Source of the DNA: Oscillospiraceae bacterium | GTDB lineage: Bacteria; Bacillota; Clostridia; Oscillospirales; Oscillospiraceae | Reading direction: 5' to 3' | Length of the DNA: 64,000 bases | Assembly (NCBI GenBank): GCA_902795195.1 | Contig: CADBKF010000008.1 | Span: forward strand, 17,677 to 81,676 | In this document: piece by piece, positions 35,165 through 62,632 of the stretch | Numbering within the stretch: position 1 is the first letter of the stretch | Layout: the number at the start of each line of letters is the position of its first letter | The notes under the pieces: generated by a model | The model's input: the letters and a program-made list of their open reading frames with translations, nothing else | What the model was told of the DNA's origin: nothing | Databases searched by the model: none | Translations under genes and position numbers: made by a program

Positions 35165-36646
35165 ATGAAGGCGTTTATGGATCGAGATTTTTTGCTGCAA
35201 AGCAGCACGGCGCAGCGGCTGTACCACGAGGCCGCAGCCGGCTGCCCCATCATTGACTACCACTGCCACCTGAGCGCGCAGGAGATTTATGAGGACCGGC
35301 GCTTTGAGAACATCACGCAGGTCTGGCTGGGCGGCGACCACTACAAGTGGCGGCTCATGCGGAGCTTCGGCGTCGATGAGCGCAGGATCACCGGCGATAG
35401 CTCCGACCGCGAGAAGTTCCAGGCCTGGGCCGAGACCCTGGCGCTGGCGATCGGCAACCCCCTGTATCACTGGAGCCACCTGGAGCTGCGCAACTATTTC
35501 GGCTTTGAGGGCACGCTGAACGGCGAGACCGCCGAGGCCGTCTGGCAGCTGTGCAACGTGAAGCTGGCCCGGCCCGAGTTCTCCGCCCGGAGCCTGATTC
35601 AGCGCTCGAACGTCGAGGTCATCTGCACGACCGACGACCCGGCGGATTCGCTGGAATGGCACGAGAAGCTCGCCCGAGTCTGTCATTCTGAGCAAAGCGA
35701 AGAATCTCATGCTGAGTCTGGGACAGATTCTTCGGCGCAAGCGCCTCAGAATGACAATGCGGAAGGCTTTTCCGTCAAGGTGCGGCCGAGCTTCCGCCCG
35801 GACAAGGCGATCTGCCTTGAAAAGGCGGACTATGCCGCCTATCTGGAAACGCTCGGCGCTGCAGCCGGCTGCAAGATCGACTCCTTCGCCTCTCTCTGCA
35901 AGGCCCTGGCACAGCGGGCGGACTTCTTTGACCGCCTGGGCTGCCGCGTGTCGGACCACGGCCTGGCGGCGGTGCCCTACGCTGAGGCAGACGCCGACAC
36001 CGTGGAGGCCATCTTCCAAAAGCGCCTGGCAGGCGAGGCCCTGTCCGTACTCGAGCTCGCGCAGTTCAAAACCGCGCTGCTCGTGTTCCTCGGCCGCATC
36101 TACGCCGAGAAAGGCTGGGTCATGCAGCTGCACTTCGGCGTCATCCGCGACAATTCCAAGCGCGTCTTCCGCGCCCTGGGCCCGGACGCCGGCATCGACT
36201 CCATCGGCGACGCGGCCTCGATCCAGGATCTGGCCTGCTTCCTCAACGCGCTCGACGAAACCGATCAGCTGCCCCGGACCATCCTCTACTCCCTGAACCC
36301 CAACGACAACGCGGCGCTGGGCACGGTCATGGGCTGCTTCCAGCAGGGCGGCATCCCCGGCAAGCTGCAGCTCGGCAGCGCCTGGTGGTTCAACGACCAC
36401 CGGCCCGGCATGGAGGCCCAGCTCACCGCGCTGGCAAGCCTCGGCCACCTGGCGACCTTCGTCGGCATGCTGACCGACTCCCGCTCCTTCCTCAGCTACG
36501 CCCGGCACGAATATTTCCGCCGCATCCTCTGCAACCTGCTCGGCACCTGGGTGGAAAACGGCGAATATCCCGCCGACATGGCCGCCCTGACCACGATCGT
36601 GCGCGGCATCTGCCACGACAACGCCGCCCGCTATTTCGCATTCTGA
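35165..36646 (+). CDS. uxaC: glucuronate isomerase carrying an in-frame ~28-codon palindromic-element insertion
   Basis: DYHCHL, GDHYKWR, GNPLYHWSHLELR, MLTDSRSFLSYARHEYFRRILC are all UxaC hallmarks. 493 aa against the ~470 aa I remember for the family. Confidence 0.9.
   Translation: MKAFMDRDFLLQSSTAQRLYHEAAAGCPIIDYHCHLSAQEIYEDRRFENITQVWLGGDHYKWRLMRSFGVDERRITGDSSDREKFQAWAETLALAIGNPLYHWSHLELRNYFGFEGTLNGETAEAVWQLCNVKLARPEFSARSLIQRSNVEVICTTDDPADSLEWHEKLARVCHSEQSEESHAESGTDSSAQAPQNDNAEGFSVKVRPSFRPDKAICLEKADYAAYLETLGAAAGCKIDSFASLCKALAQRADFFDRLGCRVSDHGLAAVPYAEADADTVEAIFQKRLAGEALSVLELAQFKTALLVFLGRIYAEKGWVMQLHFGVIRDNSKRVFRALGPDAGIDSIGDAASIQDLACFLNALDETDQLPRTILYSLNPNDNAALGTVMGCFQQGGIPGKLQLGSAWWFNDHRPGMEAQLTALASLGHLATFVGMLTDSRSFLSYARHEYFRRILCNLLGTWVENGEYPADMAALTTIVRGICHDNAARYFAF
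35682..35755. repeat. nested-palindrome element GTCATTCTGAG...GAAGAATCT / AGATTCTTC...CTCAGAATGAC inside uxaC
   Basis: An 11-bp outer arm pair and a 9-bp inner arm pair, read directly. Translates as CHSEQSEESHAESGTDSSAQAPQND. Confidence 0.85.
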
Positions 36647-39088: not shown

Positions 39089-39166
39089 GTAGGGGGCGGC
39101 GTCCTCGACGCCCCGAATATTCCAGTCTTCTGACAATCGCGGGGCGTCGAGGACGCCGCCCCCTAC
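39089..39166. repeat. nested-palindrome (REP-like) element, copy 1
   Basis: 27-nt arms GTAGGGGGCGGCGTCCTCGACGCCCCG (39089..39115) and the exact reverse complement (39140..39166), with a 24-nt spacer. Each arm contains its own hairpin GGCGTC-CTC-GACGCC. Confidence 0.9.
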
Positions 39167-40618: not shown

Positions 40619-40698
40619 CGTAGGGGGCGGCGTCCTCGACGCCCCGAACCTTTCCACATACAAAGACCTGCGGGGCGTCGAGGACGCCGCCCCCTACG
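40619..40698. repeat. nested-palindrome (REP-like) element, copy 2
   Basis: Same 27-nt arms as copy 1, extended by one bp (40619..40646 and 40671..40698), again with a 24-nt spacer of different sequence. Confidence 0.9.
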
Positions 40699-53388: not shown

Positions 53389-53442
53389 CGCATCTTTTTT
53401 GTGAATTTTTTGAAAATAATCCTTCAAAATGTGAAAAAAAGC

Positions 53443-53471
53443 TTGACCGATTGTTACAAATGTATTAGTAT
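53443..53471 (+). promoter_or_regulatory. candidate promoter of the RHH gene
   Basis: TTGACC (53443..53448), 17 nt, TAGTAT (53466..53471). Confidence 0.5.
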
Positions 53472-53489: not shown

Positions 53490-53714
53490 ATGAGCCAACC
53501 GGTGTTTCAGATTCCACAGAAAAAGTATGTGGAAGAGTCTGTCGTGATCTCCATGCGCCTGCCCAAGGACATGCTGCGCGACCTGGACGAGGCCGCCAAG
53601 CTGAGCGGCCGTCCTCGCAATGAGGTCCTGTCGCTGGCTCTGGAATTCGCCCTGCATCACATGGTCATCACCCCGGCGGACAAGCCGGTCGTGACCGTGG
53701 CCGGGCGGGAATAG
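53490..53714 (+). CDS. ribbon-helix-helix (CopG-like) small DNA-binding protein
   Basis: VVISMRLPKDMLRDLDEAAKLSGRPRNEVLSLALEFAL has the beta-strand/helix/helix pattern of RHH proteins. 74 aa. No adjacent toxin-like ORF. Confidence 0.65.
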   Translation: MSQPVFQIPQKKYVEESVVISMRLPKDMLRDLDEAAKLSGRPRNEVLSLALEFALHHMVITPADKPVVTVAGRE

Positions 53715-53724
53715 ATCACAAAAA

Positions 53725-53763
53725 ACAGCGCCCCGGGAGCAATCCCGCGGCGCTGTCTCTTTA
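53725..53763 (+). terminator. rho-independent terminator after the RHH gene
   Basis: ACAGCGCC(CCGGGA-GCAA-TCCCG)GGCGCTGT CTCTTT. Confidence 0.7.
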
Positions 53764-53768
53764 TACTA

Positions 53769-53912
53769 GAATGCAATAAAACCATTTATAATGGTTTTAT
53801 TCGTCGAACACTGAAAGCGTTCGACGCTCCGCATGAAATGCGGAGGCATTCGTACGTATTGGCATCTGCGGCGTTCGCCGCAGGCAATAAAACGATTCAA
53901 TCGTTTTATTGC
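53769..53912. other. cluster of five abutting hairpins; the first three are closed by a 6-bp helix into a linker-free four-way junction (candidate structured RNA or DNA element)
   Basis: GAATGC [AATAAAACCATT/AATGGTTTTATT] [CGTCGAAC/GTTCGACG] [CTCCGCAT/ATGCGGAG] GCATTC (53769..53851), then CTGCGGCG/CGCCGCAG (53866..53883) and GCAATAAAACGATT/AATCGTTTTATTGC (53884..53912). The pairings were read directly. Function is unknown. Confidence 0.5.
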
Positions 53913-53928
53913 AGTTCAGTATTATTTT

Positions 53929-54807
53929 TCATATGTTCTTGAGGATCTCCCGGATCTCTTCGGGCGTGAATTTGTACTCTGTGTCGCAGAACTGGCACTC
54001 GATGTTCATCGTCTCGCCCTCGTCTGCCAGGCTCTGCAGCTCCTTGCGGCCCAGGCTGATCAGCGTGCGCTCCACGCGCTCGCGCGTGCAGTAGCAGCGG
54101 TAGCTGACCGGCTCCGGGTCGAAGAATTCGACCGCATCGGTGCCCAGGGCGGCAATCAGCATTTCCTCCAGCGTCATGCCCCGGTCGAGCATGGCCGAGA
54201 CCGGGCCGGCCTGCTCGATCGACTGCTCCAGCCGGCCGATCACGGACTCCGGCGCGCCTGGCAGCAGCTGCAGGATGTAGCCGCCCGCAGCGTGGACGTG
54301 GTAGTCCACGTCCACCAGAACGCCCAGCGCGCAGGCGGACGGGGTCTGCTCGCTCTGGGCAAGGTAGGCCGTCACGTCCTCGCCGATCTCGCCGGAGACC
54401 AGCTTCACCGAGCCCACATAGGGCTCCTTCATCTGCAGGTCGCGGATGACCGTGAGCAGGCCGTCGCTGCCGACGCTCGCGCCGACGTCCAGCTTGCCCT
54501 GGTATTTTTTGACCAGCGGCACCTGCGGGTTGGTCACGTAGCCGCGCACGTTGCCGGCGGCGTCGGACACGCACAGGATCGTGCCGATCGGGCCGCCGCC
54601 CTTGATCTGCAGGGTCAGCGAGCCATTTTCGATCTTCTGCATGTTGCCCAGCATTGAGCAGGCCGACAGGGCTCTGCCCAGGGCAGCGGTTGCGTTGGGG
54701 GTGGTATGGTGGATCTGCCGCGCGCGCTCTGCCAGATCGGTCGAGCGGATGGCCACGGCCTTGACCCAGCCGTCTCGCGTCATGGCGCGTAAAATATGGT
54801 CTGTCAT
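53929..54807 (-). CDS. hslO: Hsp33 redox-regulated chaperone
   Basis: C-terminal zinc centre CYCTRERV...CQFCDTEYKF. 292 aa. Confidence 0.9.
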   Translation of the reverse strand: MTDHILRAMTRDGWVKAVAIRSTDLAERARQIHHTTPNATAALGRALSACSMLGNMQKIENGSLTLQIKGGGPIGTILCVSDAAGNVRGYVTNPQVPLVKKYQGKLDVGASVGSDGLLTVIRDLQMKEPYVGSVKLVSGEIGEDVTAYLAQSEQTPSACALGVLVDVDYHVHAAGGYILQLLPGAPESVIGRLEQSIEQAGPVSAMLDRGMTLEEMLIAALGTDAVEFFDPEPVSYRCYCTRERVERTLISLGRKELQSLADEGETMNIECQFCDTEYKFTPEEIREILKNI

Positions 54808-62551: not shown

Positions 62552-62632
62552 CCGTAGTGGCCGATGCCCACATCGGCCATCTCGCCGTAAGGCGCTTCGC
62601 GCTATGGCCGATGTGGGCATCGGCCACTACGG
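62552..62632. repeat. nested-palindrome (REP-like) element between murF and mraY
   Basis: 29-nt arms CCGTAGTGGCCGATGCCCACATCGGCCAT (62552..62580) and the reverse complement (62604..62632), with a 23-nt spacer. Each arm contains the hairpin GGCCGATG-CCCA-CATCGGCC. Confidence 0.9.

What the first reader, a model, noticed from the sequence alone, without database searches (positions are those of the whole stretch)
53769..53912. Five back-to-back hairpins, three of them enclosed in a linker-free four-way junction, in the convergent gap between the RHH gene and hslO
After the RHH gene already has a good terminator (53725..53763), another 144 nt fold almost completely. The helix GAATGC/GCATTC encloses three abutting stems of 12, 8 and 8 bp with zero unpaired junction nucleotides (53769..53851). 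An 8-bp GC stem and a 14-bp AT-rich stem follow. The first and last stems are near-identical in sequence (GCAATAAAACCATT vs GCAATAAAACGATT), so the GC-rich hairpins are flanked by two copies of one AT-rich hairpin. This density of structure exceeds what two convergent terminators need. Candidates: a small structured RNA, a REP-like cluster, a recombination or attachment site, or a single-strand DNA origin-like element.
Basis: seen in the sequence. Interest (0 to 1): 0.6.

Follow-up and report, generated by a model that had tools for sequence, protein, structure and literature searches.

The report
Small jumping DNA element (MITE) after hslO
The block of five hairpins is one copy of a small gene-less mobile DNA element that is scattered through rumen Oscillospiraceae genomes and has landed between hslO and its terminator: an ordinary kind of object, from an apparently undescribed and oddly shaped family.

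Summary
Window 53769-53912 folds as described on both strands (z -9 and -11 against shuffles).

It is not a structured-RNA gene, an attachment site or a replication origin. It is a 158-nt non-coding mobile element (53764-53921) flanked by a TTA direct repeat. It sits in the T-run of the bidirectional terminator shared by the RHH gene and hslO.

- **Mobility:** contigs of near-identical strains in two public metagenomes carry the exact empty site, 161 nt shorter. Five other runs carry the filled site.
- **Family:** well over 100 related copies lie at unrelated places in Oscillospiraceae genomes and metagenome contigs. Full-length copies (165-215 nt) fold into two mirror-image, linker-free four-way junctions. 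The window copy lacks 30 nt of the right one.
- **Unusual features:** the helix closing each junction co-varies across at least nine subfamilies. The TTA repeat always has the same polarity. About a quarter of insertions sit exactly on a gene's TAA stop codon.
- **Not found:** no transposase partner and no Rfam match.

Verdict: a new member of a known kind (a MITE, a miniature transposon without a transposase gene). The closest described analogue is the Bacillus cereus repeat bcr1.

The parts
53490..53714 (+). RHH (CopG-family) gene, left neighbour of the element
   Evidence: ORF; Pfam RHH_1 PF01402, E 2.8e-4, above the curated cut-off
53720..53761 (.). Bidirectional intrinsic terminator shared by the RHH gene and hslO. 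G+C stem 53726-53738 / 53743-53755, A-run on the left and T-run on the right.
   Evidence: Inverted repeat I2. Terminator-like site with tail CTGTTTTTTG on the - strand. In the empty allele the right-hand tail reads TCTCTTTATTTTT.
53761..53763 (+). Left copy of the TTA direct repeat (target duplication)
   Evidence: Empty-site contigs join 53760 to 53922, with 4 nt (TTAT) fitting either side. TTA precedes all 39 L-type ends examined.
53764..53921 (+). The mobile element proper: 158 nt, from TACTAG to CAGTA. It is an internally deleted copy of a 188-nt form.
   Evidence: Absent as a block of 161 nt (element plus one TTA) in runs X2 and X6. About 99% identical to L109 and L104 apart from a 30-nt gap.
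53764..53786 (+). Left terminal inverted repeat: TACTA, a 6-nt variable spacer (GAATGC), then AATAAAACCATT
   Evidence: (I1)
53769..53851 (+). Left four-way junction. Closing helix 53769-74 with 53846-51, A+T hairpin 53775-53801, G+C hairpins 53802-53826 and 53827-53845.
   Evidence: Minimum-energy fold. Closing helix co-varies across subfamilies.
53852..53865 (+). Remnant of the centre and of the right half. The deletion junction lies between 53858 and 53859. Thirty nt present in L109/L104 are missing here: the 5' strand of the right closing helix and one hairpin arm.
   Evidence: Alignment A3
53866..53883 (+). G+C hairpin of the right half (CTGCGGC-GTTC-GCCGCAG)
53884..53912 (+). A+T hairpin of the right half (GCAATAAAACGATT-C-AATCGTTTTATTGC)
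   Evidence: I3
53899..53921 (-). Right terminal inverted repeat; read on the - strand it is TACTGAACTGCAATAAAACGATT
   Evidence: (I1)
53922..53924 (+). Right copy of the TTA direct repeat
53929..54807 (-). hslO (Hsp33). Its stop codon TGA is at 53931-53929. Its transcript must cross the whole element to reach the terminator.
   Evidence: ORF; Pfam HSP33 PF01430, E 1e-95

Best explanation
The hairpin block is one copy of a non-autonomous mobile DNA element, a MITE-like miniature transposon. The family is common in rumen and gut Oscillospiraceae. Shown: the element is 158 nt (53764-53921) and ends in inverted repeats, TACTA + 6 nt + AATAAAAC.. on the left and the complement on the right. It inserted at a TTA inside the T-run of the bidirectional terminator shared by the RHH gene and hslO, and TTA now flanks it on both sides. 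Strains without it carry the intact 53-nt intergenic gap. The five hairpins are the family's standard internal architecture. Full-length copies are two mirror-image units. Each unit has a closing helix around one A+T hairpin and two G+C hairpins, which gives two linker-free four-way junctions. The window copy has lost 30 nt of the right unit, so only the left junction is complete. Inferred: the element is moved in trans by a transposase encoded elsewhere, most likely a DDE enzyme that makes a 3-nt staggered cut at TTA. That enzyme was not found. Inferred local effect: the hslO transcript now carries about 165 nt of very stable structure in its 3' untranslated region before it reaches its terminator. 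The U-run of the RHH terminator is also shortened, from UCUCUUUAUUUUU to UCUCUUUAUAC.
For: - Empty site: contigs in runs X2 (939 nt) and X6 (1190 nt) match both flanks and join 53760 directly to 53922. They skip 161 nt, with TTAT fitting either side. X1, X3, X4, X7 and X16 carry the filled site.
- Dispersed copies: the A+T hairpin with its flanks occurs in 46 stretches of genome contigs, of which about 37 (all in Oscillospiraceae/Clostridia MAGs) are family copies. The left end occurs in 68 stretches of genome contigs and 47 of metagenome contigs. Most hits are in Oscillospiraceae MAGs, always with different flanks. One MAG (SIG473) has about 20 copies.
- Depth over the two ends rises 20-70-fold in metagenomes, and the loose ends at 53761 and 53925 have mixed flanks.
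- Terminal inverted repeats: 24 nt at 83% in the window, conserved across the family as TACTA-N6-AATAAAAC.
- TTA flanks both ends in all 29 complete copies first collected and in 44 of 44 in the larger set.
- The window copy is about 99% identical to L109 and L104 at other loci, except for a 30-nt internal deletion.
- Derived forms typical of transposons exist: 'solo' forms of about 50 nt, nested insertions and truncated copies.
- No Rfam family matches, there is no tRNA, and both strands fold equally well.
Against: - No autonomous copy and no transposase with matching ends was found. I looked among about 115 left-end matches in two large collections, in the loci held, in IMG/VR, in plasmids and in phages.
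- The TTA repeat has the same polarity relative to the element in every copy. This is not expected of a DDE transposase acting on a non-palindromic 3-nt target.
- The internal closing helices co-vary. A simple 'two ends plus junk' MITE does not need that.
- The empty alleles could in principle be precise excisions and not the ancestral state. Either way the element is mobile.
Confidence: 0.85

Rival explanations
1. Same mobile element, different engine. It moves by an orientation-specific, conservative or single-strand mechanism. Candidates are a site-specific/DEDD-type recombinase that exchanges strands within a TTA shared by a circular intermediate and the target, or an HUH enzyme acting on folded single-stranded DNA. 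In this reading the four-way junctions are the folded substrate, and the flanking TTAs are a shared core and not a true target duplication.
For: - Polarity of TTA is strict: 39 of 39 left-type ends follow TTA, and 32 of 32 right-type ends follow TAA on the other strand.
- The empty site is clean.
- Closing helices stay Watson-Crick in at least 9 sequence variants although one strand of each is internal.
- The centre of full-length copies looks like abutted right end, 3 nt, left end.
- No DDE partner was found.
Against: - True inverted symmetry of the two ends over 23-45 nt is the hallmark of transposases that bind both ends as duplex DNA.
- There is no orientation bias relative to neighbouring gene direction (32 against 30 loci), unlike IS200/IS605.
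- A sister subfamily has the same ends but no terminal hairpins and no four-way junction, only one long imperfect stem (L221, L224, L228, L244, L257). The junctions are therefore not required for the ends to work.
- The window copy has lost half of one junction.
Confidence: 0.2
2. The block encodes a discrete structured small RNA, or acts as a cis-acting RNA element in the hslO 3' untranslated region whose fold is under selection at the RNA level. Its mobility would be secondary.
For: - The fold is very stable.
- Helices show compensatory changes.
- Non-Watson-Crick cells in stems are G.T twice as often as A.C on the left-to-right strand (50 against 24).
- Some rumen metatranscriptome contigs contain end hairpins of family members.
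Against: - No Rfam hit.
- No promoter-like site lies inside the element.
- The junctions have no unpaired nucleotides that could form a conserved core.
- G+C hairpin sequences are unrelated between subfamilies.
- Copies lie in either orientation relative to local transcription.
- The RNA evidence consists of a few contigs from other copies and could be read-through or DNA carry-over.
- The G.T excess rests on inherited, non-independent cells.
Confidence: 0.05
3. It is host-evolved local structure: extra terminators for two convergent genes, a REP/BIME-type cluster served by a RAYT transposase, or an attachment site or single-strand origin.
For: It lies in a convergent gap next to a terminator. 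It is made of palindromes. The same genome carries other palindromic repeat families (earlier notes e1-3048960, -61, -62).
Against: - None of the five hairpins is followed by a T-run.
- The real terminator is outside the element and already serves both strands.
- There is no GTAG/CGTC head as in REPs.
- Flanking direct repeats and terminal inverted repeats are present.
- Related hslO loci have nothing similar.
- There are dozens of unrelated chromosomal sites, and none in phage, plasmid or IMG/VR collections.
Confidence: 0.03

Closest known systems
bcr1, the group A repeat of the Bacillus cereus group (Okstad 2004; Klevan 2007; Kristoffersen 2011; as summarised in PMC3184786, PMC6542083, PMC6199540)
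   Same: A Firmicute element of about 155 bp. It is non-coding, has many dispersed copies and is distributed differently between strains. It is flanked by a short A+T direct repeat of fixed polarity (TTTAT there, TTA(T) here). It folds into a cruciform-like structure with independent stem-loops maintained by compensatory changes. No transposase has been identified.
   Different: bcr1 is described as confined to the B. cereus group. Its repeat is 5 nt, not 3. I could not obtain its sequence, so homology is untested. The double four-way-junction (dimeric) layout has not been reported for bcr1.
Tourist-type MITEs of PIF/Harbinger, and bacterial IS5-family (IS1031/ISL2/IS427 groups) or ISAzo13-type MITEs
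   Same: Size of 100-300 bp, terminal inverted repeats, and a 3-nt TTA/TAA target duplication. They prefer A+T-rich sites and lack a transposase gene.
   Different: From my own knowledge, those families have ends that begin GG/GAG and not TAC, and they insert in both orientations (TTA or TAA). Here the polarity is fixed. No IS5-type or ISAzo13-type partner was found or tested. The ISAzo13 link comes only from earlier unchecked notes on other genomes (e1-3902052, e1-3126836).
RUP and other IS630-derived MITEs; Correia/NEMIS elements of Neisseria
   Same: Bacterial MITEs of 100-200 bp with strong hairpin potential. They are often placed at gene ends and at stop codons, and can act on neighbouring transcripts.
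   Different: Those elements duplicate TA. Here a TA duplication would predict a 156-nt difference between filled and empty alleles, but 161 nt is observed. That fits only a duplication of 3 nt (or 4).
REP/BIME and REPIN elements with RAYT transposases
   Same: Intergenic palindromic repeats, often downstream of genes. Inverted doublets form the mobile unit.
   Different: REPs are 20-40 nt with a GTAG or CGTC head and no target duplication (PMC3733652). Neither feature is present here.
IS200/IS605-derived palindrome-associated elements
   Same: Hairpins lie about 11 nt inside each end. Insertion is next to a fixed short target in a fixed orientation.
   Different: Those elements have no terminal inverted repeats and show a strong replication-strand bias. 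Here the ends are true inverted repeats and orientation relative to neighbouring gene direction is 32 against 30.

Membership tests
Bacterial MITE (miniature inverted-repeat transposable element) | Small (under about 300-400 bp) with no coding capacity | tested here: met
   158 nt. The only ORF is a 44-aa frame through the hairpins.
Bacterial MITE (miniature inverted-repeat transposable element) | Terminal inverted repeats | tested here: met
   24 nt at 83% complementarity in the window (I1). Family consensus is TACTA-N6-AATAAAAC at both ends.
Bacterial MITE (miniature inverted-repeat transposable element) | Short direct repeat of target DNA at both ends | tested here: met
   TTA at 53761-63 and 53922-24. 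The empty allele keeps one copy. TTA flanks 44 of 44 complete copies.
Bacterial MITE (miniature inverted-repeat transposable element) | Many copies at unrelated loci, and presence/absence between strains | tested here: met
   Empty in runs X2 and X6; filled in X1, X3, X4, X7 and X16.
Bacterial MITE (miniature inverted-repeat transposable element) | A cognate autonomous IS with matching ends | tested here: inconclusive
   None among about 115 left-end matches, nor in the loci held.
Tourist/PIF-Harbinger-IS5 type MITE | 3-nt TTA/TAA duplication in either orientation; ends of GG/GAG type | tested here: not met
   The 3-nt TTA duplication is met. But polarity is fixed (39/39 and 32/32) and the ends begin TAC. 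The end consensus of IS5 groups is from my own knowledge.
IS630-derived MITE (RUP type) | TA target duplication | tested here: not met
   The filled-minus-empty difference is 161 nt. A TA duplication predicts 156 nt.
REP/BIME-RAYT | 20-40-nt imperfect palindrome with a GTAG/CGTC head; no target duplication; flanks a RAYT gene | tested here: not met
   No GTAG/CGTC head is present and direct repeats are present.
IS200/IS605-derived elements | No terminal inverted repeats; subterminal hairpins; fixed target 5' of the left end; strand bias | tested here: not met
   Hairpins and fixed target polarity are met. Inverted repeats are present, which contradicts membership. Orientation relative to gene direction shows no bias, 32 against 30.
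bcr1-type repeats (B. cereus group A) | Sequence homology to the bcr1 consensus; TTTAT direct repeats | not tested
Only the published description was compared.
Any Rfam RNA family | Covariance-model score at or above the gathering threshold | tested here: not met
   Best hit is 20 bits against a threshold of 45, and it lies on the adjacent terminator. Nothing was found for full-length copies.
Intrinsic terminator | G+C hairpin followed directly by a T-run | tested here: not met
   No element hairpin qualifies. The only terminator-like site is the pre-existing one at 53729-53741 with its T-run.

The most novel reading that the evidence does not exclude
The family may be more than a passive deletion derivative of an insertion sequence. 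It would then be a bcr1-like class of structured mobile DNA whose unit is a folded, linker-free four-way junction. It would be moved by an enzyme not yet linked to such elements, through orientation-specific exchange at a TTA core, often exactly on TAA stop codons. The evidence leaves this open. Polarity is absolute. The closing helices co-vary in at least 9 variants although one strand of each is internal. No DDE partner appears among about 115 sampled ends. Copies 99% identical occur in lineages whose Hsp33 is only 71% identical.
Probability: 0.15. Interest if true: 0.65.

Novelty: new member of a known kind. Interest (0 to 1): 0.35.

Why it matters
- **Annotation:** a puzzling 'over-structured' intergenic region turns out to be a transposon insertion, so it should not be annotated as an sRNA or riboswitch candidate.
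- **Local effect:** the element now separates hslO from its terminator and shortens the U-run of the RHH terminator. Natural filled and empty strains exist in which any effect on expression could be compared.
- **Family level:** this is an abundant, apparently undescribed repeat of uncultured rumen Oscillospiraceae. It breaks metagenome assemblies at its ends.
- **Horizontal spread:** near-identical copies in distant lineages point to transfer between them.
- **Open questions:** three properties are unusual for MITEs, namely fixed TTA polarity, co-varying four-way junctions and frequent landing on TAA stop codons. If a non-DDE enzyme proves responsible, the family, together with bcr1, would point to an unrecognised way of moving small structured DNA.

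Tried and rejected
- **RNA and tRNA scans.** Rfam scans of the window region and of full-length copies gave nothing near threshold. ARAGORN found no tRNA or tmRNA.
- **Orthologous loci.** I compared 80 hslO loci (up to 74% protein identity). None has similar DNA downstream, so covariation could not be read from orthologues. Most relatives have a promoter and a tRNA cluster there instead.
- **Whole-genome search.** Copy number in the window's own genome is therefore unknown.
- **Search for an autonomous partner.**
  - Long-range inverted-end pairs in all loci held: only pairs of separate MITEs.
  - Recurrent neighbouring proteins: only SLH surface proteins.
  - Left ends without a nearby right end: L219 and L223 are truncated copies next to host genes (mfd-like and TetR-like by my reading of the sequence, not scanned against Pfam). 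L287 looks like a chance match next to what I read, by eye, as an RtcB-like gene.
  - Plasmid and phage BLAST: no match.
  - IMG/VR pattern scan: 90 chance matches, none with the hairpin.
- **Deletion junction.** An exact search for the window's deletion junction found no hit in genome contigs. There is no evidence that the deleted form has itself spread.
- **Metatranscriptomes.** Only a few short contigs from other copies were found. This was not informative about a discrete RNA.
- **TA (IS630-type) duplication.** Rejected, because the empty allele is 161 nt shorter and not 156 nt.
- **IS200/IS605-type strand bias.** Not seen.
- **MAFFT alignment across subfamilies (A1).** It put the G+C hairpins out of register, so pair counts were made only on the 82-84-nt group (A2). 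The other helix variants were tabulated by script.
- **Literature.** No paper on MITEs of Oscillospiraceae or rumen Clostridia was found. The ISAzo13 papers gave no end sequences.

Full report
**1.

- GAATGC (53769-74) pairs with GCATTC (53846-51).
- That helix encloses three abutting hairpins: 53775-53801, 53802-53826 and 53827-53845.
- A G+C hairpin follows at 53866-53883 and an A+T hairpin at 53884-53912.

ViennaRNA returns this fold as both the minimum-energy and the centroid structure. The + strand gives -69.2 kcal/mol and z -9.0. The - strand gives -72.2 kcal/mol and z -10.9. None of 200 dinucleotide shuffles does as well. Because both strands fold equally well, these are DNA-level palindromes and not a strand-specific RNA design.

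The left gene is a CopG-type RHH gene, followed by a strong hairpin at 53720-53761. The right gene is hslO (Hsp33), on the - strand, with its stop at 53929-31.

**2. It matches no catalogued RNA**

Rfam at permissive thresholds gives only sub-threshold noise, and the best hit lies on the neighbouring terminator. Full-length relatives also give nothing. ARAGORN finds no tRNA or tmRNA.

**3. It is a repeat with inverted ends**

The repeat scan shows that the block sits inside a 24-nt inverted repeat, 53763-53786 against 53899-53922, at 83% complementarity.

The 80 closest hslO loci in the species-representative genome set reach at most 74% protein identity. They are rumen and gut Oscillospiraceae MAGs. 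None has similar DNA downstream of hslO.

A pattern for the A+T hairpin alone gave a different picture. It found 46 stretches. About 37 of them are family copies, all in Oscillospiraceae/Clostridia MAGs; the other nine are chance or degenerate matches. One MAG (SIG473) has about 18 and another (SRR873601_bin.87) about 7. Printing the flanks showed a common element with different surroundings each time. A second scan with the left end found 68 stretches in genomes. The same pattern found 47 in JGI metagenome contigs. None of the IMG/VR matches carried the hairpin, and plasmid and phage collections had no match.

**4. It is an insertion, and strains differ**

Laying public rumen and gut metagenome contigs on the window gave the direct test.
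- Run X2 has a 939-nt contig that matches both flanks and joins 53760 directly to 53922. Run X6 has a 1190-nt contig that does the same.
- Each skips 161 nt, and 4 nt (TTAT) fit on either side of the joint.
- Runs X1, X3, X4, X7 and X16 have contigs that run from the unique flank into the element.
- The empty allele reads ...GCGCTGTCTCT-TTAT-TTTTCA(stop of hslO).

So the ancestral 53-nt gap held a single bidirectional terminator, with a T-run on one side and an A-run on the other. The element landed at a TTA in that T-run and is now flanked by TTA on both sides. A TA duplication would predict a 156-nt difference, so it is excluded.

Summed contig depth over the two ends rises 20-70-fold above the flanks. 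The loose ends at 53761 and 53925 have mixed sequence. Both are expected for a multi-copy repeat.

**5. Anatomy of the family**

Complete copies are 165-215 nt between the TTAs. Read left to right, they consist of:
- TTA | TACTA, then a 6-nt strand;
- an A+T hairpin (AATAAAACSATT...), then two G+C hairpins, then the complement of the 6-nt strand;
- a short centre (...GTA-CAA-TAC...);
- the mirror image: a strand, G+C hairpins, an A+T hairpin, the complementary strand, then ..AGTA | TTA.

The minimum-energy fold of nearly every subfamily is therefore two adjacent four-way junctions without linkers. Each half looks like a unit bounded by its own inverted ends. The centre resembles a right end, 3 nt and a left end abutted.

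The window copy is about 99% identical to L109 and L104, which are copies in another MAG at other loci. It lacks 30 nt that carry the 5' strand of the right closing helix and one hairpin arm.

Derived forms also occur:
- 'solos' of about 50 nt, whose single hairpin is a hybrid of the two A+T hairpins (L110, L217, L226, L242, L249, L265-269);
- truncated copies (L219, L223);
- nested insertions into the TTA inside another copy's A+T hairpin (L248, L286, L293, L083, L092, L124);
- a sister subfamily with the same ends but only one long imperfect stem and no terminal hairpins (L221, L224, L228, L244, L257 and others).

**6. Covariation**

On the 15 distinct 82-84-nt left halves that MAFFT keeps in register (A2), I counted base pairs in the named structure.
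- The closing helix is 98.9% paired, and 4 of its 6 pairs change on both sides.
- The second G+C hairpin has 3 of 6 such pairs.
- No shuffle out of 500 reaches the observed score, and slid controls drop to 33-58% pairing.

A script tabulation over all loci finds these closing helices, all fully Watson-Crick:
- ATTCTT/AAGAAT
- GAATGC/GCATTC
- TTCTTC/GAAGAA
- ATTTTC/GAAAAT
- ATTTTT/AAAAAT
- ATCCCT/AGGGAT
- GACTGC/GCAGTC
- ATTCTC/GAGAAT
- ATTCCC/GGGAAT

Two cautions apply. The A+T hairpin is invariant by construction of my queries. Also, because each half is itself bounded by inverted ends, some of this 'covariation' may reflect how subfamilies arise, for example from palindromic end-to-end forms, and not selection for pairing.

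**7. Target and polarity**

In the hairpin-anchored set, which is not biased for flanks, every left-type end follows TTA (39 of 39). Every right-type end, read on the other strand, follows TAA (32 of 32). The TTA repeat therefore always has the same polarity relative to the element. The base beyond it is usually T on both sides.

Orientation shows no bias relative to neighbouring gene direction: 130 kb against 128 kb of coding sequence, or 32 against 30 loci. The gene on the right side is convergent in 34 of 43 cases. In 12 of 44 insertions the right-hand TTA is itself the TAA stop codon of that gene. About 4% would be expected if any TTA or TAA outside ORF bodies were equally likely. That control is rough, because my gene caller is conservative. 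In G+C-rich genomes TTA is rare except at stops, terminators and promoters, so part of this pattern may be availability plus survival of harmless insertions.

**8. How it most likely works**

Shown: this is a non-coding, TIR-bounded, TTA-flanked element that is present or absent between strains and dispersed in many genomes.

Inferred: it is mobilised in trans by a transposase that binds the bipartite ends (TACTA, a variable 6-nt spacer, then AATAAAAC) and joins them to a TTA cut with a 3-nt stagger.

I put about 0.85 on the element being a MITE-like mobile insertion. Within that, I put roughly one half on a DDE enzyme. A conservative or single-strand mechanism remains a live rival at about 0.2, for three reasons: the absolute polarity, the clean empty site and the failure to find a partner. 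Against that rival are the true inverted symmetry of the ends, the absence of strand bias, and the sister subfamily that keeps the ends without the junctions.

Earlier notes of this scan on other genomes describe TTA/TAA-duplicating MITEs of gut Clostridia. They attribute them to IS630-like ends (TACC...GGTA), or to ISAzo13-type parents, and note landing on stop codons. Some right ends here do begin TACCAAT. I could not test either parentage.

**9. Local consequence (inferred)**

On the - strand, hslO ends at 53929. The transcript must now read about 165 nt of element before it meets the hairpin and U-run at 53758-53719. None of the element's own hairpins has a U-run. On the + strand, the RHH terminator keeps its stem, but its tail changes from TCTCTTTATTTTT to TCTCTTTATAC.

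Metatranscriptome contigs were too sparse to tell whether this matters.

**10. Comparison and novelty**

In kind this is a bacterial MITE. The closest described analogue is bcr1 of the Bacillus cereus group. It is about 155 bp, has TTTAT direct repeats, folds into a cruciform-like structure kept by compensatory changes, is transcribed, and has no known transposase (PMC3184786, PMC6542083, PMC6199540). Homology to bcr1 could not be tested.

I found no paper on such elements in Oscillospiraceae.

The copies shared at about 99% identity with a MAG whose Hsp33 is only 71% identical suggest recent horizontal spread. MAG binning errors cannot be excluded.

I rate it a new member of a known kind, of moderate interest. 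The polarity, the co-varying junctions and the missing partner are its unexplained features.

**Limits**

- All run data were assembled contigs, without strand or reliable depth.
- Most carrier genomes are MAGs, in which insertion sequences are often missing.

Noticed in passing
window 53393-53441: TGTGAA-containing inverted and direct repeats lie just upstream of the only promoter-like site of the RHH gene (-35 TTGACC at 53443, -10 TAGTAT at 53466). They look like an operator for autoregulation. Contigs of several runs branch here, so strains vary at this point.
   Followed up: no
L020-L077, 0-330 nt after hslO: In most Oscillospiraceae relatives, hslO is followed within 100-250 nt by a strong TTGACA-N17-TATAAT promoter and a tRNA cluster, and many MAG contigs break there. 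The window has the RHH and NUDIX genes at that position instead.
   Followed up: partly
L109:1000-1193 and L104:406-599 against window 53761-53924: Element copies are about 99% identical between the window and MAG CAMOKD01, although their Hsp33 proteins are only 71% identical. This points to horizontal spread or very recent activity, or to mis-binning.
   Followed up: partly
L248:166-360; L286:4674-4750; L293:3818-3900; L083, L092, L124: Family members are inserted into the TTA inside the A+T hairpin arm or loop of other members. The element's own ends therefore contain its preferred target, tTTAt.
   Followed up: partly
L089, L091, L099, L102, L107, L108, L111, L217, L222, L242, L243 (right ends): In 12 of 44 insertions the right-hand TTA is exactly the TAA stop codon of a convergent gene, so the gene keeps its stop. 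The rough expectation is about 4%.
   Followed up: partly
L083:2830-2900 and L097:462-540: A second repeated sequence (..GCATGAGACGGRATTTTG.., with its own inverted repeat) lies directly beside family members in two different MAGs.
   Followed up: no
stems of 32 grouped full-length copies: Non-Watson-Crick stem positions are G.T twice as often as A.C on the left-to-right strand (50 against 24). This could be strand-biased mutation or a faint RNA-level signal. The cells are not independent.
   Followed up: no
window 35678-35760, 39089-39166, 40619-40698, 62552-62632: Earlier notes report other palindromic repeat families (arms beginning CCGTAG) in this same window. The genome therefore carries several unrelated hairpin repeats. 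I did not re-examine them.
   Followed up: no
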